DNA of 24,544 nt, filler included, from an uncultured virus (IMG/VR IMGVR_UViG_2049941000_000719) (lineage: Duplodnaviria; Heunggongvirae; Uroviricota; Caudoviricetes). It is 2 parts of one record of this genome, joined end to end, with 100 filler letters (N's around TTAATTAATTAA, not from the genome) between each part and the next. Parts side by side here need not be neighbours in the genome. Positions count along the whole stretch, not along the records: positions 1 to 12,934 come from IMGVR_UViG_2049941000_000719; 1 more part is not named here. One strand, written 5' to 3'. The position numbers were made by a program, and so were the translations under genes. This document shows, one piece after another, positions 2,014 through 18,770 of the stretch. Each line of letters starts with the position of its first letter. The stretch's first letter is position 1. The notes below the pieces were generated by a model. That model was not told the origin of the DNA. It ran no database searches and saw only the letters and a program-made list of their open reading frames with translations.

Positions 2014-2409
2014 ATGGTTTTGACAAAATCCAACATGATTTATTCTTATATCAATTGGCTCAACAATCAGGTNNNNNNNNNNGCGGATATCAGCGGATGG
2101 ATTGAGATTACGACACCTTTTCTTGACGGTGATAACGACTGCATACAAGTGTATGCGCGGATGGAGTCTGACAAAATTATACTATCAGATTTTGGTGATA
2201 CTATCAGAAGTATCAGATTTTCCGGTTGGGTTATCCCTGAAGAGCATTTCACACGCTGTCTTGAGATAACGACAAACAGGTTCGGCATCAAGTGTGACAA
2301 TGAATATGTACTTTCTGCCGAGGTAACTTTAGACAAATTGCCCCAAAAGCTCAACGATCTGATTCAGTGTATTGCCGCGGTGAGCAATTTCCCCATTTTC
2401 GCGAGGTGA
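2014..2409 (+). CDS. DUF1828-family protein (stand-alone)
   Basis: WIEITTPFLDGDNDCIQVY...LSDFGDT...FGI...LIQCIAAVS matches the DUF1828 pattern. Confidence 0.75.
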   Translation: MVLTKSNMIYSYINWLNNQXXXXADISGWIEITTPFLDGDNDCIQVYARMESDKIILSDFGDTIRSIRFSGWVIPEEHFTRCLEITTNRFGIKCDNEYVLSAEVTLDKLPQKLNDLIQCIAAVSNFPIFAR

Positions 2410-2437: not shown

Positions 2438-5400
2438 TTATATGAGATTTATGAAGTCAAAAGGATTTGACTTCTTAGTTTTTGATTTCTGTTTTGATTT
2501 TTTATTCGATTTTGCGCTTGATTTTGTGTTTGTTTTGGTATTTGGTTTTGTGTTTGATTTGGATTTCGACTTGGATTTGGGATTGGGTTTGGTTTTGGGA
2601 TTGCTTTTTGCGGTCGGGAATTCAAACGGGTTTGTGAATGGGTTTGTGAATGTATTGTCTGACTTTAAATCAGGCATGTTCTTCGAGATTGTGTTTCCGA
2701 ATTCATAGAAAGTCTGTTTGTTTGCCGGAAGTTCATAAACGGGGGTGTATTCCGCAGTAAATGCTTCCCATCCGCGAACAATCGGGATTTCTACGTTTTC
2801 AAGATTAAACACATTCGCGTTCAGTCTCTTTTTCTTGTCTTTGTTTTTGTCGATATCGATTTTTATGGTTCTCCTCTTCTTTGTCGGCGGTGTTATGGTT
2901 GTTGGGGGGACTATTATGGGGGGGGATGATGGNNNNNNNNNNGGGTCTTGATGGTGTATATGGGGGGTATTTTGTCGTAGGTGTCGATGGCACGGATGGT
3001 ATCGATGGCGGTGATTTAGTTGTCGGTGTTGACGGCACGGATGGCGGTAATTTTGTCGTTGGTTTTGACGGTATGGATGGCGGTGATTTGGTTGTGCCTT
3101 TTTTTGAATACCTGCCGGAGTTGTCCCCTGACATAACCCTCTTAGGACTGCTTGGCGAGAAGTAATCCGGCAATTTATAATCTAAGTCAAACGGGTTTTT
3201 GTATGTCTCTTTAGATTTTTCCTCTGTTTTAAATGTATATAATGGGCTTGCCGCAAACGGGTTGCCCGATTCATATCGTTTTGGCAATTTGTGTGGTATT
3301 GAGGATATGAGACGTCTCGATTCCCAATCGTGTATAATTTTATCATTCTTATATTGTTCTTCTTGGATCATATCATATAATTTAGATGCCATGTTGAATC
3401 TTTGTTGATTTAGTTGCGATTTTTGATTGGCTTTTGTATTTATATATTTAGATACTCGATTCTTAATTCCTGACAATGCTTGTCTTTTATAAAATACATT
3501 GTCTTCTAAAAATGCAAGCTGAGTTTCCGTAAACAAATCATCTAATTTATAGGAGTGCTTTTCTTTTTTTGATGGGGTATATCCTTTATTGAAGACATTA
3601 ATTTTTACATCTGTTTCCAAAGCCCCTGTTGGAATGACACCTAATGTATCCACAGCCACACGCTTATCATTGTGTATGGTAAATGCAGTCTTATCTATTA
3701 TTTGGAGTTGATTATTAGGTCTTGTTGTTCCCTCTTTTTCAGCCCATATTTTCTTATGTTCTGCGGTTTTTGCAGATATTGCGGCATATTGATCTGGTTT
3801 TAGATTCTCTAAGATATACTCTTTTGTTTTTGCCTCCCCCATACCAAAAGGAACCTGACCGATTTCTCGAGTACTCAGTGTGTTATATACAATAGGGGGT
3901 TTATATTCGGCGGGTATAAAATTAAGACCAAATGATTTTTTGATTTTATCATAATCATAATCGGTGCGGTCAAAATGCAGAGATGCTTCATCTGGACTAA
4001 GTGATCCTGAAAATATATCACTTTCTTTATACTTAGTCGGTCTGACAGTTATTACATTTTTACGAATCTCATCTGAAGGTTGACTTTGTACTCTTATACC
4101 TGCCATTTTGACATTATCTGAGACTTCAATGCCTTGGTTTTCAATTCTTTTCATTGCGCCCCCTTCTCGACCAAACATATCTATAAATTCCTGTCTCATT
4201 TTTGGATTATCATAATCATATTGCATACTTGGGAATTTTCTTGCACCGGAAACAAGATCCCATTCCGCAAGAACCGTCGGGGGAATGTATCTGTTACGCT
4301 TTCTGAAAGCATTCCATTCATCGAATTTGATCAGACTCTTTCCGCTGAGTTTTGCACCTACAAGCATCGGTATGATTTCGTGAGACATGATCTGTTGTGG
4401 GGTTGTTTCATTATTTGCAACCCTTGTCGCAACGGATTGAATATACGTTGCCGTCATGAACAGTCCTAATGGGACACCTACAACGGTATCGGAATTAAGG
4501 TTATTGCGGATTGTCTCAAGAATGGATATTACTTGAGGATCTTTCTTGAAAGTCTTCATTGTCGCATTAATTGCTTTTTCTCCCTGTTCAGGTGATGAGT
4601 TTATGCCGAATTTATCAATGCGGATGACCTCACCTTTGAAGGGTTTGGTTGTGCCGCCGTGCAGTTTCTTAAATTGCGCATAATTATCCATTATCGCATC
4701 GTATGCTTCATCTCCGTAGGTTTTCAGGAATTTTTGGAATGACTTTAATGCTTTCAGACCCTCTTTTCTTTCTTTTGCATTCGGGGACAGCAACATCTGA
4801 TTAATCTGATCCATTGTTCCGAATGAAAAGTCCTGTAAGTCTTTCGCACGGTCTTCTTTACGCGGCTGTACCCATCCTACACCGGGCTTGCCCTCGCCGA
4901 ATGCTTCCGAGTATTTTAAATACACTTTCGGGCGTGTAAAGTTAAATAATGCCGTTTCTTTGTTGATATTCTGTTGAGCCATGGTCGTGGTTGTAACATC
5001 CGTACCCTCGATTTTTGCGGGTAACTCCGTCCGTATACCCATGCCGGAGAATAGATCCCCCGCACCAAACTGCTCCATAGAGTGTGCATCAAAAAATTCC
5101 TCTCCTGTGTCTTTTAACAGAAGTTTATTTCCTTTAATATACACAACTTCGCGTCCTTCTATATCGTTAATTCTTTTTGCAAGAGCCTCAATGAATTCCT
5201 TTGGGTCTTTGACGAATAAATCAAAATCATTCGGGTTTCTTGANNNNNNNNNNTTTTTCGCGGAAATTACTTTTTGTACATGAGGTTCCAAAGACTGAAT
5301 AACAACAGGACTTGCATGTTGAATATGTTTATTTAAATCCGTTATAATACTGAATCTGTCAAGTGCATTTTGAAGTGATTTCTGATATGACTCATTATCT

Positions 5401-8400
5401 TTAAATCCATACATCATATAATCTGTAGGATCCTTTTTACTCTCTTCTAATAGTTCATTTACAGCTCCGCGAACATATGAAGTCTCTATACCTGATTTAG
5501 GAATATATGCCTCTAACTGTTTTCCTGTGTTCTGGTCAATTAAAAGAACACCTGATGAAAGTTTTGGATCTCCGAAATATAATCTATTGGCGAGAGGGAA
5601 TTGTGAACCACTGACTTTAGTAACTATTGGTTTTACAATATCGAGATTCTTTACACGTCTTACTACTGAAAGAGATTTAGCCGTACCTGACGGTAAGTCT
5701 ACCTTAGTATATTGTAAACTTACCGGACTTCTCGGCAGATTTCCTGTGATTTCATCCATGTACTTTTTGCTTTTCTGTATCAGTTCTTTGTTTTTCAGTG
5801 GATCGACGACAGTATGATATACACCGGGTAATCTTTTTGACCCCGCTCTCATTGCCGCACCGAGACCTCCCATTAATGCGTATGATGCCGCATACTCGGC
5901 ACCGTAACTGACGGGGTTTTCATAGAAATCATCGTAGTTAAAGAGTCCGTAGGCTAAAGGAGACCCGTTTTCGAGTTTATCTTTCCAATAGTCCGCGGTG
6001 AGCTTTGATTTTGTCTCTCCTCCCCACAGGGTATTCCAAGCATCTCCCATATCGTCATGCAACATGCGGATTTGTCTCGTACCGGGGGTAAAGTAGTCAG
6101 CAACGTTCAGCGTTTTTCTGACTAAATTGGGGTCTGGTAAAACCGTGTGAACAGTTTCCTTTGCGGCATAGGGGATTCCTCCGTATATCTCTTTCTCCAA
6201 CTGCTCTTTTTCCCGTGCTTTATCGGAGAGTCTTTGATATTCGTTGTTCAGGTCTTCCTGAGCTTTAATCATCTCCTGTTCAACTTCGTTGAACCTGTTT
6301 ACCGCTTCGGGTGTTGCTCTCGATGACCACATAAGGTTAGTATATACATCTACGTTTCTGTCGGGGTTGTCCTTCTCCGAGTAGATGGTTTCACGGGTTG
6401 TGTCTGTCGGTATCAGATTGCCGCTTTTGACAAGCTCATCCACGGTATCGGAATATTTCTTTGTCGTCGAATACAGCCCGCCTACGGGTTTCCCCGCGGA
6501 ATCCGTGCCGCCTTCGGTGAGCAGTCCGATATTCTGTAATATCTCGGACATTTCCCTGTCGACATCCATCTGATCTATGATTGTTTTCGTCCTCTCTTTC
6601 AGAGTGTGGTCACGTTCCGTGTACTTCGGCACATCCGAGATGTTTTTCTGTTTCAGGTTGAGTGCTTCGCGGGTGTTTTCCGCCGCCGATATAAACGGAG
6701 ATTTGCCCGGAAAACTTTCGGTCGGCGCCGCTCTTAACGGTGATGTATCTCTGAATCCGCTGTCGGCATCCGCGAAATTACCGCCGAAGTCCGGCTGTGC
6801 ACCGGCATTACCGGCATAACCGCCGTCGGAGAATCCTGCCTCCGTGAAATCCTCTCCGCCCGCTCTGTCCGCGNNNNNNNNNNNNNNNNNNNNNNNNNNN
6901 NNNNNNNNNNNNNNNNNNNNNNNNNNNNNNNNNNNNNNNNNNNNNNNNNNNNNNNNNNNNNNNNNNNNNNNNNNNNNNNNNNNNNNNNNNNNNNNNNNNN
7001 NNNNNNNNNNNNNNNNNNNNNNNNNNNNNNNNNNNNNNNNNNNNNNNNNNNNNNNNNNNNNNNNNNNNNNNNGTTGTCCTCCCGCATAAGAGTAGTCTGC
7101 GTCTTCCGAGTCTTCGCCTTCGGCACCGAAATCTCCGTATTCCTCATCGTCGTAATCTCCGTCTCCGAGTTCTTCACCGCCGTAACCTTCTCCGCCGTAA
7201 TCTTCTTCGCCGTATTCGTCCTCGTCGAAATCTCCGCCCGCATTTCCCGCAAAGTCTCCTCCGCCATAGGACTCTCCTCCGTAACCAGCATCGGGCATTG
7301 CGGATGTGCCCGGCATACCTTTCATGCGATCAACGGTCTGCATGAAATTATCCTGAGCACCGTCAAAACCTTCAAAGCGCTGTAATCGGGACATTGCCGA
7401 CTCGTCCACCGGCTCTTTCAGCTCCGCCATCGCCTTTTGATAATCCGCATTATCCTTGGCAAGCGCATTATCGAGTTCATTACCCATCTCGTCTATGGTA
7501 TTGAAATAATCTTCAAATCCGTCAGACGCGCCGTTCTTTGCCGCATTAAACTGTGCCAACATCTCGGCATCTCTGCGGTCTGCTTCGGCATTACGGATCT
7601 CCTCATTTGTCCTGATTGTTCCGAGTGTGTCCGCCTTGAACCTTGTCGGTGTATCGAGGTCACNNNNNNNNNNTCGGTCTCCTCATCGAGCATAACGCGG
7701 GTACTGTCGGCATCGGGAATATACGGGTTGAAGGTATCTTCGTTGAACGGGATGTCGAGGTTTTTGAGCGCCGAAGGCAATCCTTCCGCGGAATCTCCGG
7801 ATGCAACGACATCACCCGACCATCCGTAAATTACAAAATTGCCGCCGTTATCTCCCGTGCGCAGTGTGTATCTCTGTTTGCCGTCACGCGAGATCAGGAT
7901 ATATTCATTGGTTGCGGAATCGGGTGCGGCTTTAAATCGGCTGTATGTTGTGGAGTCTCTGCCGTCCGCCATCGCCTCCGCCGCACTTTCTCCTCCCGCA
8001 CTTGTCCAGTCCGTGTTGCCGTACCTGTTTTCCGTTGCCGCCTGCTCTCTCATGAAGGCATCGGATGACAAATCCCTCTTGTTTTCGTCGTTGACTTTTA
8101 AAATAGATTCAACATAATTCGGGTTGTCAAGCATCCTCTGTTGAACTTCGGCATTCTGTTTTGCAAAGAGCGCTTCCGCGTGCTTTACCTGTTCGTCTTT
8201 CAAAGGATCCGTCTCATAATATACCGTGCCTGCATTTTTATCGGGGACAAATTTGGAATCTCCCGTCTCTTCATCTTTGACAAAGTATCCCGGAACCCCG
8301 ACATCTCCCGCTTCGACAGCGCTTTCTCTTGCTCTGCGGAGTGTATTTAATGCCTGATTGCCGCCTTCTACATTCGCAAGAACTGCCGCACGGGTATTTG

Positions 8401-9430
8401 CGTCCATGTCGCTTGCCTTATCTTTGGCATTTAATTCGGTGTAGATTTTGTCATTTTCCGTTTTATTTGGACTGGTTCTGTCCTGCTGAACATCATAGAT
8501 GGAACCTGTCATTCTGTCCGCCATTGACTTTGTTGTTTTGTCATATTGTGAGACATAGATGGCGTCAGCGGATTTGTTGAAATCAGCTTTACCGACGGTT
8601 GATCCAATCTCACCGAGATAGTTAAATGCGAACTGCTTTGCGTCTTTTGGCGCGGTTGATGAAAGTGCGATATTCATAAGTTTGGTCTGGTCACCTTCGG
8701 TGACGTAACCCTTATTTACGTCATCGCGTCTGATATCCTCAATTAAACGCTGTCTGGTATCCGTATCAATGGTGGGATCTTCAATAAGGTTCAGGTGTGC
8801 TTCCCTTGCTTCTACCGTCATCGGAGTGTATGAACTGCCCTGACCGACCATTGATGAACCTGTAAGGATTGCAAAACTTCTTACATTTTCCATCAATCGT
8901 TTTTCTTTTGCTTCCTGTTCGAGTTGTTTATTGACCGAACCGGCAAGTCTTTCCAATCCTGCATATGCGGCATCATAATTTTGTGAATCTCCCTGATCCC
9001 CGATTGTCTCAAACTGTCTGAATTCTTCAGGGTCAACTACTGGTGCCTGTGCACCTTGGAGTTGATCTCCGAGATAATCTCCGATGGACACTCTCTCGAT
9101 TTTTAACGGACTATTCACACCGCCTGAATAAAATGTTACTTTCTCACTTTTTGCCGCGGCTTTTCGTTCTTCAGCTCTTTTGTTTGCCGCCCCTTCCGCT
9201 TCTCTTAATCGTTTATATTCACGTTCAAGCTCAGCTTTGGCTACATTACCCGCCAAATTTTCTCTGCGTCTTGCCTCTTTTTCGGCAATCGCTCTGCGTC
9301 TTCTGTCGGCATTTGACTGACTGATTATTGTCGGAGTCGTTGATCCCGCACTTTGCGGAGATAATGTTCTCGGACTCATCGTGTTTGTTGTTGATGTTGC
9401 CCCGTTGTTTGGTGTAATATCCTGTCCCAT
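2438..9430 (-). CDS. Giant (~2300 aa) multidomain protein; one gene joining track ORFs 7493..9430, 2805..7562 and 2438..2812
   Basis: The 1585-aa frame stays open from 7562 up to the gap at 7664 (DLDTPTRFKADTLG...RDAEMLAQF); after the 2933-2942 gap the frame PSSPPIIVPPTTITPPTKKRR...NANVFNLENVEIP runs into the 2438 ORF; GGGGGA RBS before ATG 9430. Confidence 0.75.
2900..3100 (-). repeat. Pro/Ser/Thr-rich coding repeats, TTK(S/L/Y)PP(S/Y)(I/V/T)PS.P, about 4 copies of 12-15 aa
   Basis: TTKSPPSIPSKP TTKLPPSVPSTP TTKSPPSIPSVPSTP TTKYPPYTPSRP. Confidence 0.8.
6760..7290 (-). repeat. Acidic Gly/Asp/Glu/Tyr low-complexity coding repeats (about 5-aa period), partly unresolved (N-run 6874-7071)
   Basis: YGGESYGGGDF...DEYGEEDYGGEGYGGEELGDGDYDDEEYGDF. 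Confidence 0.7.
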
Positions 9431-9445
9431 TTTGTAATTTCCCCC

Positions 9446-10012
9446 TTATCCTGAAATTGCATAAAAATTGTCCAACCGCAATACCGCTAATTTATAGCAA
9501 AAATCAAATTTTTCAATCCGGTCTTTGTATAAATTTTTGATGTAATCCCTTACATCTTCGTCCTGTATGGTGTACGGACGATTTACCGATTTGTTGAGAT
9601 AATCGATTGCCGACAGAAATTCCGCCCATTTCGGTTTGTCTGCACCTACCGATTTCGGATTTTCCAACAGCGCATTGCATGTCTCAAACACGGTCGGATC
9701 TACATTATCTATTTTGTACCATGTATGATCTTTTTCCGAGCAATCTATTGCACTTTTTAAGTGTCGATATGTCCATGTAAGATCATAACAATACGGTATC
9801 CTCAATGAATTCCTTTGGGTCTTNNNNNNNNNNTCCAACCATTGAAATTCGTATCCGAGCGATACTCCGCATCTTTGAAACAGATATATCATTGCCTGAA
9901 TACTTCGGTTTTCCGGGTATTTGTCACCGTCTCCGTCGGGATTCCTAAGTTTATCCAAAGGATATCCCAACTTATCAAGCACCAAATACAATTGTACCTC
10001 ATTATCTCTCAT
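9446..10012 (-). CDS. YwgA/SocA-Panacea/DarG-C-terminal-like winged-helix protein (copy 1)
   Basis: R..Q...YLFQRCGVSLGYEFQW...PYCYDL...WAEFLSAIDYL; clear paralog of 20137..20769. Confidence 0.6.
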   Translation of the reverse strand: MRDNEVQLYLVLDKLGYPLDKLRNPDGDGDKYPENRSIQAMIYLFQRCGVSLGYEFQWLXXXXKTQRNSLRIPYCYDLTWTYRHLKSAIDCSEKDHTWYKIDNVDPTVFETCNALLENPKSVGADKPKWAEFLSAIDYLNKSVNRPYTIQDEDVRDYIKNLYKDRIEKFDFCYKLAVLRLDNFYAISG

Positions 10013-10043
10013 TTTTTCAATCCCCTTTTCCCTAAATACAGAT

Positions 10044-10211
10044 CTATCTGAACTTTATTAAACAATCCGATTGAGAGTATGTTCCCAACCTAATGAGGTT
10101 GTTTTTTGTGACCGTGTATGCATGGATGAGTTCTCCCGCATCCATGTCAACAATTTCGGAAAGGGTTATGTCCCTTCCCGATTTATCTCTGAATACCAGT
10201 TCTGTTTTCAT
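10044..10211 (-). CDS. 55-aa hypothetical protein (MKTELVFRDKSG...)
   Basis: GGGGT RBS before ATG 10211; fills the space between its neighbours. Confidence 0.55.
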   Translation of the reverse strand: MKTELVFRDKSGRDITLSEIVDMDAGELIHAYTVTKNNLIRLGTYSQSDCLIKFR

Positions 10212-10230
10212 TATTACCCCCGTTATCCGT

Positions 10231-10674
10231 TTACCTGTCCAACATGTATTTGGCAATCAATGCCGCAATACCGATACCGAGCATGGTTGTCCACACCATC
10301 GCGGCTTCCTGCGGTATCAGGACACCCCATATTGTCGAGGTCAGGATGCCGAGCACGATGGGCATCGTGATGTTGCCGGTTTTCTCATACGAACGATATA
10401 TAATCGCCGACCAGATGACCACGAAAAACCACGCTCCCCAAACAGTGGTCAATGGCGCTATCATCGAATATGCAAATCCGAATCCGTCAAAAACCTCGGC
10501 ATCCGGGTGATACCAATATTGGGTGAATGTTCCGTAGTTGTAATCGGGAATTGATATGTTTTCCAGATTCAATGCGGAAACAACCCCTACCTGTAACACC
10601 GTGAGTATTATCAGGATTACTAACGGTATTTTTGATTTTGCAGTTATTTTCTTTATTTTCTCTTTATCCATCAT
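10231..10674 (-). CDS. Membrane protein (signal peptide plus ~3 TM helices), putative virion-tip or assembly protein
   Basis: IPLVILIILTVLQVGVVSA signal peptide; hydrophobic C-terminal helices; GGGGAA RBS. Confidence 0.75.
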   Translation of the reverse strand: MMDKEKIKKITAKSKIPLVILIILTVLQVGVVSALNLENISIPDYNYGTFTQYWYHPDAEVFDGFGFAYSMIAPLTTVWGAWFFVVIWSAIIYRSYEKTGNITMPIVLGILTSTIWGVLIPQEAAMVWTTMLGIGIAALIAKYMLDR

Positions 10675-10692
10675 ATTCCCCCGAATATTTCT

Positions 10693-11115
10693 TCAGTCTT
10701 CAAATATCACACCGCGTACTATCTGTAATACTGCCGCACCGTACGCAAACCATGCGGGCGCCGTCAGCAGTGCACTTAACGCGGTAGGGATTCCCAAGGA
10801 CTGTAAGAAGAACGGCAAATACACCGTTGAATTATATAAAGCTCTGCCGAACATGACTAATACATCCAATATGGATGTCTCATCCAATCCCGTCATTTGG
10901 AAATCAGAGTAATTTACAGTTGATATTAATCCGGTGTCCGTTGCAAGATAGTAATTGTTTGTATCACTATCATACGTATAAGTCCAATTTCCGCTTAAAT
11001 TGGATGAATATTGAAGTCCGGGATATGCCGCTCCGAAAAGCGCCATCTCCGACATCAAAGCCACGGACAAGTTCAGGATGAATAAAAACATCGCGATTTG
11101 ATAACCTTTTATCAT
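10693..11115 (-). CDS. 140-aa membrane protein with N- and C-terminal TM helices and a glycosylatable loop
   Basis: GGAGGT RBS before ATG 11115; sequons NLS, NWT, NYS. Confidence 0.75.
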   Translation of the reverse strand: MIKGYQIAMFLFILNLSVALMSEMALFGAAYPGLQYSSNLSGNWTYTYDSDTNNYYLATDTGLISTVNYSDFQMTGLDETSILDVLVMFGRALYNSTVYLPFFLQSLGIPTALSALLTAPAWFAYGAAVLQIVRGVIFED

Positions 11116-11116
11116 A

Positions 11117-14100
11117 TTAAGACCTCCTTTGAGTGAATCCCGCAACCATTGCAATTACTATCGCAATAATAAGCCAATGCCACGGAATTGTAAGCCATCC
11201 GAGGTATGTGAAGAATATCGCACACATCGCGACAACCACGGCACCGCGAATTGCGGACATATAGCTGAATAACCCCGCAATCAGGATGAGCAGACACGAG
11301 AACAAAACATTGAGGATGTTTTTGTCCAACGGAATCGGTATAATATCCTGAGATGCCGAGACAAAGAAGTTGTTTCTTGTGACTCCCGAAACTCTGTTTG
11401 CCGAAAATTCGACTTTATACGACGTAGTATCATCGATAATCGGAAGTGTCTCGTTAATCGATTCCGTTCCGGTAAACGTTTCATCATAGACTGTTTCCCA
11501 TGTATCCGTCCGCATAATTTTGACATTCACATTTTGTGTCTGTCCCGATGAATCGGCATATTTGAACTGAATTCCGCCCGCCTGTGTATCCCATGTCGCG
11601 CCGTATGTGACGGAAGAGCTTATCGGGCTTGAGTATATGGAAATTGTCTGTGAATTCACGTTCGGTGTTGCCTGATAAATCATGATCTTTTCACCGTTGC
11701 CGACATCAAATTTATAATTTTGACCTGCCGTGAGCAAAATCACATATTTTCCGACGGAATCCGTCAAGCCTTGTGCAAAAGGACTCCATAGATTGTTATT
11801 GTAAATAGAGACATTTATTCCCACATTTCTGTATGAATCACTGTCTTTGTATGCGTAAAGGGTAAACCAGAAGGTATTTGTACTCGGCTCAGGAGCCGGA
11901 GATGTCTGCTGATAGAATGTCAGACCGTCAGTGCGACCCGCCAAGACAAAATTCCCGCTTGTAGCAATCTTTAACGCCGTTATCGGATTGTCGCTTTCTG
12001 AGGAATATTCGAGATACCAATTTGAAGATTGATCTTTACTGAATAGATACATCTTGCCGTCGGATCCTCCCGACGTTGCCCACAATGCATTACCGGCAAT
12101 ATCCACATGCCGAACATCTCCGCCCGCCGTGTATGTTCCCACTCTCGCCGCGATCTGACTGTATATGTCAGTATATTGTCCCTGTCCGATAACGGACATT
12201 GCCGCCTCGTTAGCCGTCGCTATCCCATATACCGTACCCTCACTGCCTAAGACCGCATTATAGGATGTTCCAAATCCTGAAGACGTAATCTGATCATGAT
12301 AGACTCTTGATGCCGTTGCTGTTCCTAACCAATCTCCCGCATCCGATACACTGATAGACTCTATCGCTCCTGTGACTGTTTTAGATGCCTGATACTCATA
12401 GATAGATAATGTCGGCTTTGTGCGCAGTTCATATGTGCCTGTGAAATCAACCGCGTTATTGTATGTTGTCTGTGTGTGCTGCGGAGAACTGCCTTGATAA
12501 TTATAGAATAACCATGTCTGTCCTGTTGAGGACGGCTGAATTTGCAACAAACCCTCAGACACCCAAACGTCATTTAAATTACTGCCTGTAGATCCGCCGC
12601 CAATAAATAATTTGTCTCCGACAACCCAACTACATGCCGCATATCGCGCCGCCCATCCCGCCGAGGCAGTCTGTTGAGTCCATGTTTGACCAAAATCCTC
12701 AGACACCCAAATATCTCTTAAATTACCGCCTGAAAATCCCCCGCCAATAAATAATTTATCTCCGACAACCCAACTACATGCTAATTGCCTTGCAGACCAT
12801 CTCGCCGAGGCTGTTTGTTGAGTCCATGTAATACCTAAATCCTCAGACACCCAAACATCCCTAAAATAATTACTGCCTGTTCTTCCCCCGCCAATAAATA
12901 ATTTATCTCCGACAACCCAACTACATGCTGCTTGNNNNNNNNNNNNNNNNNNNNNNNNNNNNNNNNNNNNNNNNNNNNTTAATTAATTAANNNNNNNNNN
13001 NNNNNNNNNNNNNNNNNNNNNNNNNNNNNNNNNNTCTTTCCCGTTCAGATATTTCACGATAACCATCATGAATCCTCCCGAAATTCCGAGGATTTCAAGC
13101 ACAAACAGATATATCCCTAAATAAATATCCGAAGGGTTGCAGACGGAAATAACCCCTAAAGCAAAGGTTATTCCAATCAATCCTTCAAGATATGCTGACA
13201 GTGCGGTTTTCATATCCTCTTTGGTTTTACCGAATTCCTTCCAATCCTCTATTAATCCCATGATATTCCCTCTTCNNNNNNNNNNACATATCGCGCCGCC
13301 CATCCCGCCGAGGCAGTCTGTTGAGTCCATGTAATACCTAAATCCTCAGACACCCAAACGTCATTTAAATTACTGTCTGTAGATCCGCCGCCAATAAATA
13401 ATTTGTCTCCGACAACCCAACTACATNNNNNNNNNNTCTCCCCCCGCCAATAAATAATTTATCTCCGACAACCCAACTACATGCTGAATGTCTTGCAGAC
13501 CATCCCGCCGAGGCAGTCTGTTGAGTCCATGTTTGACCGTAATCCTCAGACACCCAAACATCATTTAAAGTACTGCCTGTAGATCCGCCGCCAATAAATA
13601 ATTTATCTCCGATAACCCAACTACATGCTGATTGTCTTGCAGACCATCCCGCCGAGGCTGTTTGTTCTGTCCATACTGCTCCTAAAGTATCCAAATAATT
13701 ATATGCCCCTGTTGTATTCAATGATGAATCTGAAACGGCAATATAGTCATAAACCTGTTCCCAAAGTTCATCTCCCAGAGTTGTATTTGATAGTATAATT
13801 GCCTCAGTCTGATCCGGATTGGTATATAGAATCAAAAGGTTTTGGAAATCCGCAAAATTTGTATTAAACGAATTATAATTATTAACTGCCCAATAATCAT
13901 CTGTTGTCGTGATTACATATTTGTCAAGTTTAGATGTGCCTGACTGAACAATTGCATAATCATCATTAGGATCGATAACTCCGAGATCAAATGTGCCCGC
14001 AGTTGAATTGTAATCAAGATTACCATTTGAGAGATATTTATGAAATATGCCGGATTCTACAATCAGCACGTTGCCGACATCCGAGATATCAATATCCGTG

Positions 14101-14492
14101 ATATCCGTAAACTGTTCAGTCCATGTTATTTGCCCATCGTCAATATAATAGACCTCGTTTCCATCAGTATAAAGCGCCGTTTTGCTCCCGTCAGCTGTGC
14201 AGACAATTTCCTGAACGGCTCCCGATATGCTGAATGTGTTTTGCTGTGTGCCCTGTGAATCATACACATACAGCGTAGAGTCCGCACCGTCAGCAATTGC
14301 CGCATAAATTATGCTCCCATCCTCAGCCATATCAGCTGCTAAGACATCGCCGATCTCCTTTGTCCATGCGACCGATGTGTCCGCGGAAACAATACCGACG
14401 ATGCCAAAAATCAAAATACAGACTAATGCGATGTGAAAAAGAGAGTTATTGTCTGTTGTTGTTATTTTTGTTGATTCTTTTTTTTTATACAT
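11117..14492 (-). CDS. Large membrane-anchored adhesin or receptor-binding protein: signal peptide, WD40-like blades, Kelch/Asp-box repeats, more WD40-like blades, two Ig-like domains, three C-terminal TM helices; broken by assembly gaps
   Basis: Track ORFs 13365..14492 and 11117..12850 share the same 48-aa repeat; GGTGAT RBS at the 14492 start; ILIFGIVGIVSA signal; C-terminal TM trio. Confidence 0.75.
12979..12990. other. Artificial contig linker TTAATTAATTAA inside an N-run
   Basis: Six-frame-stop spacer flanked by Ns on both sides. Confidence 0.85.
13036..13261 (-). CDS. Small 2-TM protein, family B (3' partial; fragment probably misplaced in the scaffold)
   Basis: GAGGGA RBS, MGLIEDWKEFGKTKEDMKTAL...; bounded by gaps on both sides. 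Confidence 0.6.
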
Positions 14493-14496
14493 AATA

Positions 14497-14667
14497 TCAC
14501 CAAACTATCAGGGCATATATCATTCCTACCAGTGCGGCACCGCAGAATGTGCCGCCGACCTGACACACTGTGTCGATGAGTATATCCGCAAAGGTCATCT
14601 CGTGAAGATGTCCCTCGTCATCTATGTAAAACATGTTTTCATATCGTTTCGGGCTGAGTATTTTCAT
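14497..14667 (-). CDS. 56-aa protein with a C-terminal TM helix (MKILSPKRYENMF...ALIVW), not in the ORF track
   Basis: GGGGGA RBS; its stop overlaps the GGTGA RBS of the adhesin gene. Confidence 0.6.
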   Translation of the reverse strand: MKILSPKRYENMFYIDDEGHLHEMTFADILIDTVCQVGGTFCGAALVGMIYALIVW

Positions 14668-14848
14668 TTGATTTTTCCCCCAAGATAATCTGCATTGCCG
14701 TAAAACATATCCCTGTTATACAGGTGAATGCAAAGACGCACATTCCGAGATCGGTTACCGTCTGTATCATTACAATTGCCGGAAGTACCCATAAAATAAT
14801 ACAGAATACAAGTTCTGCTATTTTATTCTGCCCCGCATATTCGCTCAT
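14639..14848 (-). CDS. 69-aa 2-TM membrane protein
   Basis: Two hydrophobic helices; overlaps both neighbours as in an operon. Confidence 0.6.
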   Translation of the reverse strand: MSEYAGQNKIAELVFCIILWVLPAIVMIQTVTDLGMCVFAFTCITGICFTAMQIILGEKSNENTQPETI

Positions 14849-15095
14849 TTGTCGTGTTCTCCTGACATAAATAACATAGGAAATTACTCATAACCAGTAT
14901 TGTTGTAATCATGAATCCATACATGGTCAAAACACACAGGTTTTGGCACCAGTTTTCGATGTCGATTATGAAATTGAAATGGAAATTTAACGTAAGTGTG
15001 AGTATTGCCGCTATGTAATAGCACAACCATCCCAAAATATATATTTTGAATACCGACACAAGTTCTTTTTTGGTAACATTCTGTTTTAGTTTCAT
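14823..15095 (-). CDS. 90-aa 2-TM protein, family B
   Basis: AGGGGG RBS before ATG 15095; TKKEL...YLCQE. Confidence 0.65.
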   Translation of the reverse strand: MKLKQNVTKKELVSVFKIYILGWLCYYIAAILTLTLNFHFNFIIDIENWCQNLCVLTMYGFMITTILVMSNFLCYLCQENTTNERICGAE

Positions 15096-15115
15096 TATTG
15101 CCCCCCTTTTGAGTA

Positions 15116-15391
15116 TTATACCGTCACGGTTGCGGTTTCCGGTTTGACTAACTCGTCCTGACACAGATAGTATATCACCATTGCCAACAGAGATGTTACG
15201 AACGCTGAATACATTAATGCCATTCCGACAATCCAACTCATAAAATCAAATGAATTTACGAGACAGTATTCCAATAAATGAACGGCTGTATAAAATCCCA
15301 TGCCAATCTCCAAAATTTTGAGACAGTCTTTTAAAAATTTCAACATATCCGCTTTATCTATCAATTTATAAGGTCTATTCAGTAATCTCAT
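15116..15391 (-). CDS. 91-aa 2-TM protein, family B
   Basis: AGGGGA RBS before ATG 15391; DKADM...YLCQD. Confidence 0.65.
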   Translation of the reverse strand: MRLLNRPYKLIDKADMLKFLKDCLKILEIGMGFYTAVHLLEYCLVNSFDFMSWIVGMALMYSAFVTSLLAMVIYYLCQDELVKPETATVTV

Positions 15392-15597
15392 TGTAATCCC
15401 CTTCAATCCCNNNNNNNNNNNNNNNNNNNNNNNNNNNNNNNNNNNNNNNNNNNNNNNNNNNNNNNNNNNNNNNNNNNNNNNNNNNNNNNNNNNNNNNNNN
15501 NNNNNNNNNNNNNNNNNNNNNNNNNNNNNNNNNNNNNNNNNNNNNNNNNNNNNNNNNNNNNNNNNNNNNNNNNNNNNNNNNNNNNNNNNNNNNNNNN

Positions 15598-15850
15598 TTG
15601 CACCGCCTGATATTGTGGCGGTGTAAATCATCCAAATGAAACAGCATATAATGAACGGCACCGGGAACCACTGCCAACACAGCAGTAGGTTCTGTATGAT
15701 GTAANNNNNNNNNNCAGGCACCCCCGAATTCACAGCCAGATCATAGAGTGTAATCGTGACCAGATCATAAAGTGCTGTATAAACGAACATTACCGCCGCT
15801 ATCGCAAAAACGACGGTAATTCCTGAGTATGCTACGTCTCTTAATGTCAT
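15598..15850 (-). CDS. Hydrophobic hairpin membrane protein (3' partial), possible minor capsid protein
   Basis: Two hydrophobic helices; ATGA overlap with the upstream gene. Confidence 0.65.
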
Positions 15851-16119
15851 ATTCTATCCTCCCCATCATCGGAATTACCGAGGAAAATCCAAAGTATGGG
15901 CGCGATGATGCACAGGATGAAGATGAAAAGCATCGTGGACAGCCCTATTCCGAAGAAATCATAGATTGCCGTGTAATAAGTCAACCACACGTCAGAAAGG
16001 GATGTTGAGTCTAACGTGCCGTAGACCGAATAAAATACAATTCCTCCTACGTAGATAACTACGGTTAATCCGATTACGGTTGCTATAACTCCGCTGACCG
16101 ATCTGAATTCGCTTCCCAT
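15847..16119 (-). CDS. 90-aa hydrophobic hairpin protein, possible minor capsid protein
   Basis: GGAGGA RBS; two TM helices with a ~25-aa linker. Confidence 0.7.
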   Translation of the reverse strand: MGSEFRSVSGVIATVIGLTVVIYVGGIVFYSVYGTLDSTSLSDVWLTYYTAIYDFFGIGLSTMLFIFILCIIAPILWIFLGNSDDGEDRI

Positions 16120-16156
16120 TGTTTATTCCTCCTGTTTTACGATGTATTTGTGAATT

Positions 16157-16891
16157 TTATTTCAGGAACATAATTCCCACGCCGAGGAGAACACCCGCAA
16201 TAAAGCAGATTATCGGCAGATAATTTGTCGACGGACTCTGAGCTTTCTCATCGGTGACTTTTTTCATTGCTTCCTGATATCCCGTCAGGTCGGATGCCGT
16301 GAGGTTGCGCGGATAGTATCTCTGCAAGTCATACACGGGAACATATGAGAATGCTCTCATGCGGATTTCGGCATCCGACGGGCATTTTTCGATTGCCGCA
16401 TACAGTGTGTCAAAGTTTGTAATCGGCGCACGGTCTGCTTTCTTCGGTAACCACGTGAAATCAGGTTCAAACATGAATTCAGGTTCGTCGTCGGAATTCC
16501 ATGCATTTATGAAATCGAGTGTTGCGATGTTGATTTTCGGGTCAAGTGTCAATCCCCAGTAATCTACAAGGAGTTCTGCGTTACATTCTCCGAATAAGTG
16601 GTGTTCGGTCTTTTTTGCCGTCCACGTCATTCCGAGTGCGCTGAACACTCCGCTGAAATATCTCAGCCTTTTGAAAGATACACGGTGATTCTGGAATATA
16701 ATTCCAATATCTTTATCATCACCCGCACCGAATAGCGCCGTCCAGAAATATCCTTCGACCGGACCTAACTTGCTGTATCCGAGATACATTGCAAATCCCA
16801 TGACCATGATTACGAGAATCAGAAAGATTATTGCCCACGTGCTTAATCCGATTCCCAAAATGCTCTGCTCATAAACTGTGATATATGCCAT
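16157..16891 (-). CDS. 244-aa membrane protein with N- and C-terminal TM helices and a soluble middle domain
   Basis: Clean ORF, GGAG RBS, terminal hydrophobic helices. Confidence 0.75.
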   Translation of the reverse strand: MAYITVYEQSILGIGLSTWAIIFLILVIMVMGFAMYLGYSKLGPVEGYFWTALFGAGDDKDIGIIFQNHRVSFKRLRYFSGVFSALGMTWTAKKTEHHLFGECNAELLVDYWGLTLDPKINIATLDFINAWNSDDEPEFMFEPDFTWLPKKADRAPITNFDTLYAAIEKCPSDAEIRMRAFSYVPVYDLQRYYPRNLTASDLTGYQEAMKKVTDEKAQSPSTNYLPIICFIAGVLLGVGIMFLK

Positions 16892-16946
16892 ATTTTGACT
16901 CCTTTGTTATTTTGTGTTGTTTGTTTTTTATTCAGTCCGCCGTCGG

Positions 16947-17640
16947 TTAATTCCTCTTCAGGAAACTGAAAAATCCTCCGGACTTACTTGATTTTTTCTC
17001 TTCGGGGACACTCCTTAAGGCATCTACGACACCGGGGTTGAGTGTTCTGCCGAGGATGGTTGCATCTCTTAATCCGTCGCCTTCATAGGTTGTGCTCCTC
17101 GCTATGAGGTTGCGCGCCCAATGATGCAATTGGATGTAATCTGTGGGTGACATTTCGCGCGCTACCCTGCTGTCCGCAAGTGACGCGATAATGGATGCGT
17201 GCATCAAGTCCATGGCTTTTTTCTGCTGTTCGACGTTGGATGTGTTCGTCATGGTCTGGTGAATTCCCCCTTCAAACATTATCCAAAGTGCGTCCTGAAT
17301 ATACTTCTTGGATGCCGGCAGTGTGAAAGTCGTTTCTTTCTTGATGAGCGTTTCACTCAGCCCCTCACTTCCGCCGTAAGGTGTCGGGGACATGTCATCC
17401 GACATATCGGGCATATCCGACATGTCCGGATGATAGACTCTTNNNNNNNNNNTCGGCATCTTCGGGCATGTCAGGCATGTCGGGTGCGGCATCGTCTGCA
17501 TATCCCCCCATATCGGGCTGTTCGCCGTAATCGTCGTCGGGTGTTCCCCCGCGGTTTAACAAATCATTTATTGAACCGAGGCATGTGCCGTCTTCCATGA
17601 AGATGTTCCCCGATTCTTCATCAAGTAATAAATTTCTCAT
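16947..17640 (-). CDS. Hypothetical protein with an acidic (P/S)DM-repeat N-region and a C-terminal amphipathic helix (joined across the gap at 17443-17452)
   Basis: PDMPDMP before the gap and PDMSDMPDMS after it; ends KKSSKSGGFFSFLKRN. Confidence 0.7.
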
Positions 17641-18181: not shown

Positions 18182-18361
18182 TCACCCCGCCTTAAATTTA
18201 CTGAATACCGCAAGTATTACAGCAATTATCAATACGAGAATAAGAATTCCGAACAATCCGAAACCCGATGTTACCGTGTTTTCGATTGTATCCTGTAAAC
18301 CTGAATACGGAGATATTTCCGTTAAAATAAGATTGCTCTGAAAAAGTAAGTTAGAGGTCAT
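18182..18361 (-). CDS. 59-aa truncated paralog of the capsid-like protein (minor capsid candidate)
   Basis: GAGGT RBS; SPYSGLQDTIENTVTSGFGLFGILILVLII aligns with SPYYALQNSLETTTASGYGLIAIVIIIVAA. Confidence 0.7.
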   Translation of the reverse strand: MTSNLLFQSNLILTEISPYSGLQDTIENTVTSGFGLFGILILVLIIAVILAVFSKFKAG

Positions 18362-18375
18362 GATGTACCTCTGAC

Positions 18376-18770
18376 CTACTGCTGTCTGCGCTGAATCAGC
18401 GTGATTGCCGCCATGANNNNNNNNNNGCAGCTGCAACAATGATGATTACAATCGCGATTAAGCCGTATCCGGATGCGGTTGTGGTCTCAAGTGAGTTCTG
18501 GAGTGCATAGTACGGACTTGACTCGTTAACGGCAGGCATTGCCTGCTGAACGCTTGCGAGAATAATAACACCGATTGCGATGACGATTGCCAGTGCAATG
18601 AACGATGTAACCATTCCGGTAATCCAATCCGTAAAACCATTCTCATTGAGTCCAAGCGTCTCTCTTGTCTCCTCACGAAGACCTGAGAAAGCGCTCTCCC
18701 CCATTCTGTATGCCTGTGCTCTGCGTGCGATAAGACCGCCCGCAAGGCTGAGCTTTTCTTTAAGACTCAT
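18376..18770 (-). CDS. Putative major capsid protein of spindle-shaped-virus type (leader plus two-helix hydrophobic hairpin); real C-terminus ...IMAAITLIQRRQQ* after the gap
   Basis: Strong GGAGG RBS; first gene after the promoter motif; ~45-aa leader ending NENG|F; two hydrophobic helices; NES sequon in the loop; basic tail. Confidence 0.65.

What the first reader, a model, noticed from the sequence alone, without database searches (positions are those of the whole stretch)
2438..10012. Candidate viral effector-immunity system: giant NTase/ART-like protein preceded by a DarG-C/YwgA-like gene
Seen: a ~2300-aa gene ends the structural gene run and carries two enzyme-like motif sets. A YwgA/Panacea/DarG-C-like gene stops 15 bp upstream of its start on the same strand. 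Known: the DarG C-terminal domain binds the ADP-ribosyltransferase DarT, and Panacea/SocA domains neutralise diverse toxins. Inference: the giant protein is a packaged, injected polyvalent effector (host takeover or anti-defence) and the neighbouring gene is its inhibitor or chaperone. I do not know of such a module being described for spindle-shaped archaeal viruses.
Basis: partly seen in the sequence, partly recalled or inferred. Interest (0 to 1): 0.85.

Follow-up and report, generated by a model that had tools for sequence, protein, structure and literature searches.

The report
Giant viral nucleotidyltransferase protein with Panacea-like neighbour
An uncultivated archaeal virus encodes a 2,300-residue modular protein that contains a previously unclassified nucleotidyltransferase-type enzyme domain, and in this lineage a small antitoxin-like gene sits just in front of it, but whether the two work as a toxin and its antidote is still open.

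Summary
The window is a gapped assembly with 25 N-runs, so the giant gene appears as three frame pieces (9430..2438, minus strand). A 97%-identical ungapped metagenome locus (L001) carries it as one 2,326-codon ORF. A 178-codon gene ends 15 nt upstream.

One of the two claimed enzyme motif sets holds. Residues ~1245-1580 form a Pol-beta-type nucleotidyltransferase (NTase) fold with invariant [G/S]S, DxD and a third Asp. This domain family is in no Pfam model. It occurs in large proteins on virus-like contigs binned with Methanomicrobia, Halobacteriales and Thermoplasmatales MAGs. An ART-like domain was not found.

The small protein is moderately supported as a divergent Panacea/YwgA-type protein: profile-profile probability 41-82%, controls 0.4% or less. 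No Pfam hit, and only a weak fold match to a chain of the DarTG complex.

The pairing is lineage-specific. The small gene is adjacent in 3 of 6 loci that carry the giant gene. In those it was inserted between a conserved 55-codon ORF and the giant gene. A paralogue lies 10.7 kb upstream.

The giant protein has conserved N- and C-terminal modules around a replaceable centre.

The effector-immunity reading is possible (~0.35) but untested. Packaging and injection are not addressed by any data.

The parts
2438..9430 (-). Giant gene. It appears as three frame pieces (9430..7674, 7661..2943, 2932..2438) separated or interrupted by N-runs at 7664-7673, 6874-7072, 5244-5253 and 2933-2942. It equals the single 2,326-aa ORF of L001.
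   Evidence: full-length relatives
7674..9430 (-). Conserved N-terminal module: an S/T-rich start, a basic RRRR coiled-coil stretch, then ~550 conserved residues. It is 40-55% identical in all five related loci, including L005.
4539..5384 (-). NTase-fold domain (P0035 residues ~1245-1580). DxD lies at 5228-5220 and the third Asp at 5090-5088. The [G/S]S motif lies in about 124 nt missing at the N-run 5244-5253.
2438..3100 (-). Pro/Thr/Ser-rich repeats (TTKSPPSIPS type). They are followed by a basic stretch, the conserved C-terminal motif (ENVxxPIxRGxEA...ELPxNxxTxYxFGN) and a Lys/Ser/Thr-rich tail.
9446..10012 (-). Small gene, 188 aa as printed and 178 aa in nature, a divergent Panacea/YwgA-like protein. 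Positions 9800-9833 hold a 24-nt foreign copy plus 10 N, both absent from L001.
9431..9445 (-). 15-nt spacer with a purine-rich GGGGG stretch ahead of the giant ATG. This suggests translational coupling or co-transcription.
10044..10211 (-). Conserved 55-aa ORF. In L003, L004 and L005 it directly abuts the giant gene. In the window, L001 and L002 the small Panacea-like gene lies between them.
20137..20769 (-). Paralogue of the small gene (210 aa), a member of the wider subfamily P0038-P0047 that carries the YGPYS motif.
20762..21391 (-). 209-aa ORF of unknown family whose end overlaps the paralogue's start by 8 nt, a TA-like bicistronic layout.
10231..11154 (-). Two small membrane-protein genes (147 and 153 aa) that precede the 55-aa ORF in all relatives.
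2014..2409 (+). Convergent DUF1828 / PDC-M24B-like gene (131 aa) that bounds the gene run.

Best explanation
Shown:
- The giant gene is one 2,326-codon gene. It is a conserved gene of a group of uncultivated, non-tailed archaeal viruses.
- Its product is modular. An N-terminal module of about 610 aa and a C-terminal motif of about 70 aa are conserved in every relative. The ~1,570-aa centre is replaceable.
- In this lineage the centre holds a Pol-beta-type nucleotidyltransferase domain of an unclassified family, with invariant [G/S]S, DxD and third Asp.
- The upstream 178-aa gene belongs to a small family with two copies in this genome. It resembles Panacea (DUF4065/YwgA-type) antitoxin domains at profile level.
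- In this lineage only, the small gene was inserted between a conserved 55-codon ORF and the giant gene, 15 nt from its start.

Inferred, and the mechanism I commit to:
- The NTase module is an active enzyme that nucleotidylates a host or viral macromolecule.
- It is carried on a scaffold made with the late, membrane-protein-rich morphogenesis genes.
- The Panacea-like protein, co-expressed from the same late operon, binds the giant protein and keeps its enzymatic module silent or folding-competent in the producing cell. This follows PanA-PanT logic.

My odds for each step: single gene 0.99; NTase fold 0.85; catalytically active 0.6; Panacea-like 0.65; functional pairing with the giant protein 0.35; packaged and delivered into the next cell 0.3.
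For: Gene and its relatives:
- One ORF in L001 and in two full-length relatives.
- Five related metagenome loci were confirmed out of 133 pattern matches.

NTase domain:
- The AF2 model of the domain has pLDDT 77.7 and pTM 0.75.
- Foldseek against PDB gave 0 matches at E<=0.001. The best rows are a putative H. pylori nucleotidyltransferase (4ok0_B, E 2.4e-3, prob 0.98; 4o8s, JHP933), then mostly nucleotidyl-transferring enzymes by entry title: CD-NTases (CdnE, DncV, CdnG) and the toxin TglT/MenT3.
- S81, D102, D104 and D149 sit on the expected strand/helix elements. The three Asp are invariant in 20 of 20 aligned domains and S81 in all 19 that cover it.
- The domain family gave 28 hits at E<=1e-3 among 1.84 billion representatives.
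- It is found in 9 MAG contigs, titled Methanoregula, Methanoculleus, Halobacteriales, Methanosarcinales and Thermoplasmatales among others, amid TM-rich ORFs.
- BFVD gave 3 matches at E<=0.001, one a 1,125-aa protein of Nitrosopumilus spindle-shaped virus.

Modularity:
- The L005 orthologue aligns to P0035 only at residues 3-614 and 2185-2255.
- L005 is not hit by the domain HMMs.

Small protein:
- hhalign of A5 against 10 archaeal proteins that pass Pfam's Panacea cut-off gave prob 82.4% (P 1e-5), 49.6% or 41.3% (E 2.8e-4), depending on match-state settings. The alignment always fell on the lQKivYLlQ...Y.W..(G)PYS core.
- 26 control comparisons with A5 as query gave 0.4% or less: 24 (3 unrelated alignments, 1 reversed, 20 shuffled; all 0.2% or less) and 2 (AbiEii 0.4%, MNT 0.2%).

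Pairing:
- Adjacent and co-oriented in the window, L001 and L002. L002's small protein is only about 51% identical to P0005, so the arrangement has been kept over real divergence.
- Insertion inside a tight late operon.
- All 4 NTase-positive close relatives have a family member within about 11 kb. The one NTase-negative relative (L005) has none.

Published background:
- Panacea domains neutralise many unrelated toxins by direct binding (PMC8832971, passages read).
- The DarG C-terminal domain sequesters DarT (PMC7003065, passages read).
Against: - Linkage fails in 3 of 6 loci that carry the giant gene. L004 has the NTase but only a distal copy. L003 and L005 have none in the DNA held.
- The window and L001 are nearly the same virus, so independent adjacent cases are 2 of 5.
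- None of the 3 distant NTase-bearing loci with 10-kb flanks (L010, L011, L014) has a family member.
- These few related genomes give no statistically independent co-occurrence.
- No member of the small family reaches Pfam's Panacea model: 0 of 17 at E<=5.
- The model of the small protein is poor (pLDDT 63.5). Its best whole-length fold match, 7yk3_D, is insignificant.
- The G of the GPV signature is missing in the giant-adjacent clade (IPY/MPY).
- Known PanT toxins are small. A 2,326-aa core virus protein as the partner has no precedent that I know of (recalled).
- The NTase domain matches no curated NTase family. Only marginal hits appeared: mCpol in 2 of 20 members at E 0.088 and SMODS in 1 at 0.28.
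- hhalign to AbiEii and MNT alignments gave only 0.2-12.5%.
- There are no data on toxicity, binding, expression or virion content.
Confidence: 0.35

Rival explanations
1. The small gene is unrelated to the giant protein. It is an orphan antitoxin-like gene, one of two paralogues. The virus would use it to neutralise host toxin-antitoxin or abortive-infection toxins. Alternatively it is half of another pair, as its paralogue may be with the 209-aa ORF. On this reading it merely landed in front of the giant gene in one sub-lineage.
For: - The adjacent copy is present in only 3 of 6 loci carrying the giant gene. The more widespread subfamily (P0038-P0047, 10 of the 14 database hits) is the distal type.
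- The distal paralogue overlaps a different upstream ORF by 8 nt.
- L004 keeps the NTase-bearing giant gene without an adjacent copy.
- Phage-encoded orphan antitoxin mimics that defeat DarTG are reported (PMC11825919 and PMC10760071; search listing and start of abstracts only).
Against: - The insertion lies inside a tightly packed late operon, 15 nt from the giant ATG, not in the region of small early-type genes.
- The arrangement is kept between L001 and L002 although the small proteins are only about 51% identical.
- No host toxin target is known.
Confidence: 0.3
2. The giant protein serves the virus itself: a morphogenesis, entry or genome-handling protein. Its NTase module would act on viral nucleic acid or protein, for example end modification, tailing or priming, and not as a host-directed toxin. 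The small protein would then be an assembly chaperone or irrelevant. No immunity relationship exists.
For: - The gene is conserved at the same position after the Kelch-repeat protein and two membrane proteins in all five related loci.
- NTase-bearing large proteins sit in equivalent membrane-protein blocks in three distant archaeal lineages.
- This is the behaviour of a core gene, not of an accessory toxin.
- The closest fold neighbours include viral poly(A) polymerases.
- There is a structural match to a large protein of Nitrosopumilus spindle-shaped virus.
Against: - The centre that carries the NTase is replaced by about 1,010 unrelated residues in L005. That is unexpected for an essential replication or assembly enzyme and is typical of swappable cargo.
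- No nucleic-acid-binding or polymerase accessory domain was detected.
Confidence: 0.25
3. One reading: a polyvalent effector with both NTase and ADP-ribosyltransferase activities. It would be packaged and injected, and held in check by a DarG-C-like immunity protein.
For: - NTase fold.
Against: - No ART signal in Pfam, NCBIfam, PADLOC, the PDB profile search or the Atlas.
- The DarG-type match is statistically insignificant and rests on a low-confidence model.
- There is no macrodomain.
- Nothing bears on packaging or injection.
- I did not verify which protein chain D of 7yk3 is.
Confidence: 0.07

Closest known systems
Pol-beta-superfamily nucleotidyltransferases, small ANT/LnuA/JHP933/MenT (AbiEii, DUF1814) type, and viral poly(A) polymerase catalytic domains
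   Same: - Predicted strand-[G/S]S-helix, DxD strand and third-Asp strand.
- Best structural neighbours by two independent aligners.
- MenT/AbiEii members are toxins of toxin-antitoxin systems.
   Different: - No curated family model is matched.
- Profile comparison with AbiEii and MNT alignments is at noise to weak level.
- It has extra invariant motifs: SEQxxRK and GRxKDxxD[YF][YF].
- It is embedded in proteins of 600-2,300 aa with Pro/Ser-rich tails, on virus-like contigs.
- The substrate is unknown.
PanA antitoxins (Panacea domain, DUF4065/PF13274; includes SocA and YwgA-type proteins) of PanAT toxin-antitoxin pairs
   Same: - Similar size (~180 aa), with the helix lQKivYLlQ followed by Y.W..(G)PYS.
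- Profile-profile probability of 41-82% with clean controls.
- Encoded directly beside, and co-oriented with, a gene that has an enzyme domain of a toxin-like fold.
   Different: - Below every Pfam threshold.
- The signature Gly is lost in the giant-adjacent clade.
- The partner would be a 2,326-aa conserved virus protein, not a small toxin.
- The pairing is not conserved among relatives.
- The element is an archaeal virus, whereas the published survey lists 17 bacteriophages and 3 archaeal phyla (PMC8832971, passages).
DarG C-terminal domain of DarTG
   Same: - An all-helical domain of ~190 aa that sequesters an enzyme toxin (PMC7003065, passages).
- Weak whole-length structural match to a 187-residue chain of entry 7yk3.
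   Different: - No macrodomain.
- No DarT-like ART next to it.
Large protein (1,125 aa, database label 'IgA FC receptor') of Nitrosopumilus spindle-shaped virus (Thaspiviridae), BFVD entry A0A514K2U2
   Same: [quoted passage not shown]
   Different: - No sequence comparison with it was possible: the NSV record is not held in the phage collection.
- Its function is not described in the ICTV profile I read in full (PMC8491892).
- TM-scores are low (0.26 and 0.10).
Polymorphic toxins and modular injected effectors: conserved delivery modules with swappable toxic centres or ends, and adjacent immunity or chaperone genes
   Same: - Conserved N- and C-terminal modules with a replaceable centre.
- A small binder-type gene is adjacent in some lineages.
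   Different: - This is a resemblance of architecture only, recalled and not tested.
- No secretion or delivery domain was recognised.
- The small gene is upstream and not universal.
- The carrier is a virus.

Membership tests
Pol-beta-superfamily nucleotidyltransferase fold | A beta strand followed by h[G/S]S at the start of a helix | tested here: met
   The model has strand 77-79, then G80-S81 opening helix 81-90. S81 is present in all 19 rows that cover the column. Position 80 is G in 17 of these and S in 2; L001 also has S-S. In the window this motif lies in the gap at 5244-5253.
Pol-beta-superfamily nucleotidyltransferase fold | [DE]x[DE] on the next strand and a third carboxylate on a following strand | tested here: met
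   D102 and D104 lie at and within strand 103-107 and D149 in strand 145-152. All three are invariant in 20 of 20 sequences, the window's own included.
Pol-beta-superfamily nucleotidyltransferase fold | Structural similarity to solved NTases | tested here: met
Pol-beta-superfamily nucleotidyltransferase fold | Nucleotidyl transfer activity | not testable with these tools
   Needs an enzyme assay.
AbiEii / MenT (DUF1814, PF08843) toxins | Match to the family model or profile | tested here: not met
AbiEii / MenT (DUF1814, PF08843) toxins | Adjacent AbiEi/MenA-type antitoxin | tested here: not met
   The neighbours are a Panacea-like gene, a 55-aa ORF and membrane proteins. No such family was hit.
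Panacea / DUF4065 (PanA, SocA, YwgA type) | Score above Pfam PF13274 gathering cut-off | tested here: not met
   0 of 17 family members are listed for PF13274 at E<=5. The same holds for P0004, P0005 and P0006 alone.
Panacea / DUF4065 (PanA, SocA, YwgA type) | Profile-profile similarity to bona fide members over the core | tested here: met
   Tested against 10 archaeal proteins that pass the Pfam cut-off. Probabilities were 82.4% (P 1e-5, 53 columns), 49.6% and 41.3% (E 2.8e-4, 77 columns). 26 controls gave 0.4% or less. This is moderate, not decisive.
Panacea / DUF4065 (PanA, SocA, YwgA type) | Conserved GPV signature (stated as critical for neutralisation in PMC8832971, passage read) | tested here: inconclusive
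   Pro and the following Tyr are invariant in 17 of 17. Gly is present in 8 of 17, all in the distal subfamily. The giant-adjacent clade has IPY or MPY. Bona fide archaeal members show GPY, GPF, GPA and GPV.
Panacea / DUF4065 (PanA, SocA, YwgA type) | Conserved two-gene arrangement with a toxin | tested here: inconclusive
   The small gene is adjacent to the giant gene in the window, L001 and L002, but not in L003, L004 or L005. The paralogue overlaps another ORF by 8 nt.
DarG C-terminal domain | Fold similarity to the solved DarTG complex | tested here: inconclusive
DarG C-terminal domain | N-terminal macrodomain and a DarT-type ART partner | tested here: not met
   The protein has 178 aa and no Pfam domain. 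There is no ART family hit in the giant protein.
ADP-ribosyltransferase domain in the giant protein | Any sequence or feature match to an ART family | tested here: inconclusive
   Nothing in Pfam at E<=1, NCBIfam at E<=1, PADLOC, the PDB profile search or the Atlas for residues 1600-2080. The regions outside 1245-1580 were not folded, so an ART fold is not excluded.
Spindle-shaped archaeal viruses | Short major capsid protein with two hydrophobic helices (SSV1 VP1 / His1 VP21 type) | tested here: inconclusive
   Candidates at 18396..18770 and 18182..18439 have the right size and hydrophobic segments. The only hit is a weak PHROG 'virion structural protein' match (E 0.0058). tblastn of one candidate (L001 867..1256) against the phage collection found nothing.

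The most novel reading that the evidence does not exclude
A group of non-tailed archaeal viruses encodes a giant 'polymorphic' protein. Conserved N- and C-terminal modules would serve assembly into, or delivery from, the virion. Between them sit interchangeable enzymatic cargo centres: a new NTase family here and an unrelated centre in L005. Lineages with the NTase cargo have recruited a Panacea-type protein as its dedicated immunity or chaperone partner. This would be the first effector-immunity module of the polymorphic-toxin kind described in an archaeal virus, and the first Panacea partner that is a virion-scale protein.
Probability: 0.12. Interest if true: 0.85.

Novelty: new variant of a known kind. 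Interest (0 to 1): 0.58.

Why it matters
- Almost nothing is known about how non-tailed archaeal viruses of methanogens and their relatives take over or enter cells. Their largest genes are unannotated.
- This work gives one such gene a concrete, testable biochemical handle: an NTase domain with defined catalytic residues, present in about 28 protein clusters across several archaeal lineages.
- It shows that the gene is built as conserved ends around a swappable centre.
- If the Panacea-like neighbour really neutralises it, the known reach of this antitoxin domain would extend to archaeal viruses and to a giant partner.
- If it does not, the two paralogues are candidates for viral antitoxin mimics against host toxin-antitoxin defences.
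- Either outcome can be tested with ordinary expression, rescue and binding assays.

Tried and rejected
Searches that found nothing:
- Pfam, PHROGs, PADLOC and NCBIfam on the three giant pieces, on the full-length P0035 and on the small protein gave nothing usable.
- Word-index homology search with the giant centre: none of 8,000 scored candidates passed.
- tblastn against the phage collection found no match with the N-terminal 585 aa, the NTase region, P0021, the whole P0035 or a capsid-like ORF. The NSV record is not in that collection, so this says little about thaspiviruses.
- IMG/VR scans found no confirmed relative with the small protein, the giant centre, the domain alignment or the N-terminal alignment.
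- The genome-contig scan with the small-protein family found none.
- PDB sequence-profile searches with A1, A2, A6 and A8 gave only chance-level rows.
- Atlas for P0005: the nearest clusters are unnamed, mostly archaeal. Panacea appeared only as a 0.86 lead carried by 13% of one cluster's members. For P0035 residues 1600-2080 the best score was 0.75, i.e. nothing.
- Earlier-findings look-ups returned nothing.

Insensitive or weak tests:
- hhalign of the NTase domain against AbiEii and MNT alignments gave 0.2-12.5%. I rejected this as a membership test because the two known NTase families score 0.1% against each other under the same conditions.

Tools not available:
Nothing was folded.
- No whole genome is held for the window. 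The L001 record is not held for whole-record search.
- The NSV paper PMC6681747 is not held.

Ideas considered and dropped:
- A tape-measure protein of a tailed virus. There is no terminase, portal, capsid or tail family in the window. The weak PHROG 'tail assembly' hit (E 0.0059) lies on another ORF.
- A programmed frameshift in the giant gene. The frame changes coincide with N-runs and vanish in L001.


Full report
**1. What is in the window**

The 24,544-nt window has 25 N-runs: 21 of 10 N, two of 44, one of 187 and one of 199. Five of them lie inside the finding.

On the minus strand the listed ORFs are 7493..9430 (645 aa), 2805..7562 (1,585 aa) and 2438..2812 (124 aa). Three-frame translation shows that the open frame changes exactly at the runs 7664-7673 and 2933-2942. 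It continues through 5244-5253 and 6874-7072.

I therefore read the gene as three pieces:
- P0001: 9430..7674
- P0002: 7661..2943
- P0003: 2932..2438

The small ORF 10012..9446 (P0004, 188 aa as printed) also holds an N-run.

**2. The gaps are artefacts and the gene is single**

An exhaustive HMMER search with 1,200 residues of the centre found 28 proteins at E<=1e-3 among 1.84 billion representatives. Among them were P0007 (1,999 aa) and P0009 (2,074 aa). Both match the window's N-terminus (MxQDITPNN...) and its C-terminal motif (ENVxxPIxRG...ELPxN..T.Y.FGN).

A metagenome scan with the N-terminal alignment confirmed 5 loci out of 133 pattern matches. L001 is 88-99% identical to the window block by block and has no N. 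It carries one ORF of 2,326 aa (10001..16981). A 178-aa ORF (9449..9985) precedes it, with 15 nt between the two.

Comparison with L001 shows the true size of the gaps:
- The 10 N at 5244-5253 hide about 124 nt.
- The 199 N at 6874-7072 stand for about 1 nt.
- Positions 9800-9833 of the small gene hold a 24-nt exact copy of giant-gene sequence plus 10 N, where L001 has 4 nt.

These are assembly artefacts, not biology.

**3. Context**

In L001, L004 and L005 the gene order is:
- a ~1,040-aa Kelch/BNR-repeat protein with terminal hydrophobic segments
- two small membrane proteins
- the giant gene

The DNA that looks intergenic in front of the giant gene encodes a conserved 55-aa ORF (window 10044..10211). 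In L003, L004 and L005 it abuts the giant ATG. In the window, L001 and L002 the small gene lies between them.

Downstream, a DUF1828 / PDC-M24B-like gene is convergent.

Eight of the 10 upstream ORFs examined in L001 have TM-like segments. No tailed-virus hallmark family was hit. A non-tailed, possibly spindle-shaped archaeal virus is plausible. Two short hydrophobic capsid-like ORFs lie at 18182..18770, with a weak PHROG hit at E 0.0058. This is not proven.

**4. The enzyme domain**

Twenty-six of the hits share one stretch with these motifs:
- YGSxxQ
- RxPRDFDV
- GEKLFDIH
- TTLSEQxxRKL
- GRIxPxHxGRxKDxxD[YF][YF]

None of the 27 hits scanned has any Pfam family at E<=1e-3.

I aligned 20 domain sequences, with the P0007 part first because the window's own copy is cut by the gap. 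The window's post-gap part was included. AlphaFold2 gave pLDDT 77.7 and pTM 0.75.

Structure searches with this model:
- Foldseek against PDB: no match at E<=0.001. The best rows are a putative H. pylori nucleotidyltransferase (4ok0_B, E 2.4e-3, prob 0.98; 4o8s, JHP933), then mostly nucleotidyl-transferring enzymes by entry title: CdnE, TglT/MenT3, DncV and CdnG.
- BFVD: 3 matches at E<=0.001. The best was an unnamed 1,041-residue piece (2.3e-8). The second was a 1,125-aa protein of Nitrosopumilus spindle-shaped virus (8.9e-5).

The motif residues sit where an NTase needs them. G/S80-S81 follow strand 77-79 and open helix 81-90. D102 and D104 lie at and within strand 103-107, and D149 in strand 145-152. 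The three Asp are invariant in 20 of 20 sequences.

L001 reads S-S at the first motif. The window retains DFD (5228-5220) and the third Asp (5090-5088).

I conclude that this is an NTase fold of an unclassified family. Membership in AbiEii/MenT, MNT or CD-NTase families is not shown.

**5. Distribution and modularity**

The domain HMMs hit:
- the window, L001, L002 (cut by the contig end) and L004
- nine MAG contigs whose titles name Methanoregula, Methanoculleus, Halobacteriales, Methanosarcinales and Thermoplasmatales
- two contigs binned as bacteria and one simply as archaeon

They do not hit L005 or L003. L003 ends before the region.

In the three loci with 10-kb flanks, the NTase-bearing protein (1,064-1,554 aa) lies among membrane-protein ORFs.

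BLASTP of P0035 against the L005 orthologue (1,661 aa) aligns only residues 3-614 (41%) and 2185-2255 (46%). The centre is unrelated. P0011 carries the domain twice. The giant protein is thus conserved ends around a replaceable centre.

**6. The small protein**

Its family is tiny. The first search found 2 hits and a profile search found 14.

The window holds a second copy at 20137..20769 (210 aa, about 31-33% identical). This copy belongs to the larger subfamily with YGPYS. Its start overlaps the end of a 209-aa ORF by 8 nt.

No member reaches Pfam's Panacea model: 0 of 17 at E<=5.

I collected archaeal proteins that do pass that model and compared profiles:
- My hhalign run gave 82.4% (P 1e-5, 53 columns).
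- A run with 50% match-state assignment gave 49.6%.
- The session's own tool gave 41.3% (E 2.8e-4, 77 columns).

All three fell on the same core. Three unrelated alignments, one reversed and 20 column-shuffled Panacea alignments gave 0.2% or less. AbiEii and MNT alignments gave 0.4% or less.

The published GPV signature (PMC8832971, passage) is GPY in 8 of 17 members. It is IPY or MPY in the clade next to the giant gene.

My estimate that this is a true distant Panacea-type domain is about 0.65.

**7. Linkage**

An HMM of the family run over six-frame translations of the window and L001-L014 hits only the window (twice), L001, L002 and L004. In L004 the hit is a partial copy at the locus edge, 10 kb upstream of the giant gene (tblastn agrees).

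Adjacency therefore holds in 3 of 6 loci that carry the giant gene. That is 2 of 5 if the window and L001 count once. It holds in 0 of 3 distant NTase loci.

All four NTase-positive close relatives have some family member within about 11 kb, and the NTase-negative L005 has none. With so few related genomes this is only suggestive.

**8. Mechanism**

The steps that are shown and those that are inferred are listed under Best explanation.

I favour, at 0.35, that the inserted Panacea-like gene is co-expressed with the giant protein and binds it, acting as a neutraliser or chaperone of the NTase module.

The rivals are:
- an unrelated viral antitoxin mimic or a member of another pair (0.30)
- a virus-internal role of the NTase with no immunity relation (0.25)

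Packaging and injection are untested.

**9. What is in print**

I searched the paper library five times:
- spindle-shaped viruses of methanogens
- Panacea/DUF4065
- spindle-shaped + nucleotidyltransferase + archaeal viruses + methanogen (2 papers, in one of which the term refers to a tRNA nucleotidyltransferase of a tailed virus, passage read)
- DarTG
- NSV

In these searches I found no description of an NTase-bearing giant protein or of a Panacea-like gene in a non-tailed archaeal virus. The library lacks most subscription papers, and the NSV paper is not held.

**10. Verdict**

This is a new variant of known kinds (NTase fold; Panacea-type neighbour) in an unusual carrier. Interest 0.58.

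Noticed in passing
window 9800-9833 and 5183-5206: A 24-nt string in the small gene, directly beside the 10-N run, is an exact copy of giant-gene sequence about 4.6 kb away. It is absent from the near-identical L001. It is most likely a scaffolding artefact, and it adds 8 false residues to the 188-aa ORF.
   Followed up: yes
window, all 25 N-runs: The N-run lengths do not reflect the missing sequence: 10 N stand for about 124 nt at 5244 and 199 N for about 1 nt at 6874. Frames across any N-run in this window cannot be trusted.
   Followed up: yes
window 20137-21391 (-): A 209-aa ORF of no known family overlaps the Panacea-like paralogue (210 aa) by 8 nt. This layout looks more like a classical toxin-antitoxin pair than the giant-gene pairing does.
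   Followed up: partly
window 10044-10211 (-): A conserved 55-aa ORF, too short for the ORF list from its ATG, directly precedes the giant gene in L003, L004 and L005. Its function is unknown.
   Followed up: partly
window 11117-14492 (-): The 577-aa and 375-aa Kelch/BNR-repeat ORFs are two pieces of one ~1,040-aa protein (L001 5225..8344), split by N-runs. It has TM-like segments at both ends and its middle differs between the window and L001. It is a candidate receptor-binding protein.
   Followed up: partly
window 2014-2409 (+): A DUF1828 protein matches the N-terminal half of the PADLOC defence candidate PDC-M24B (E 5.9e-29) and phrog_5059. It is convergent with the giant gene, 28 nt from its stop.
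   Followed up: no
L005 9998-14983: The orthologous giant gene (1,661 aa) shares only the N-terminal ~610 aa and the C-terminal ~70 aa with the window's protein. Its ~1,010-aa centre has no detected family.
   Followed up: partly
protein P0011 (1,528 aa): It carries two tandem copies of the NTase-like domain, with an HSHPG-containing stretch between them. It sits on a contig of 177,596 bases.
   Followed up: no
L001 (contig of 75,318 bases): The near-identical relative lies on a 75-kb contig, far longer than the 27-29 kb given for thaspiviruses. The element may be a larger virus or a provirus. The rest of the contig could not be read.
   Followed up: no
BFVD entry A0A514K2U2: A 1,125-aa protein of Nitrosopumilus spindle-shaped virus, labelled 'IgA FC receptor', matches the NTase-like domain model (E 8.9e-5). 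The label looks like an automatic misnomer.
   Followed up: no
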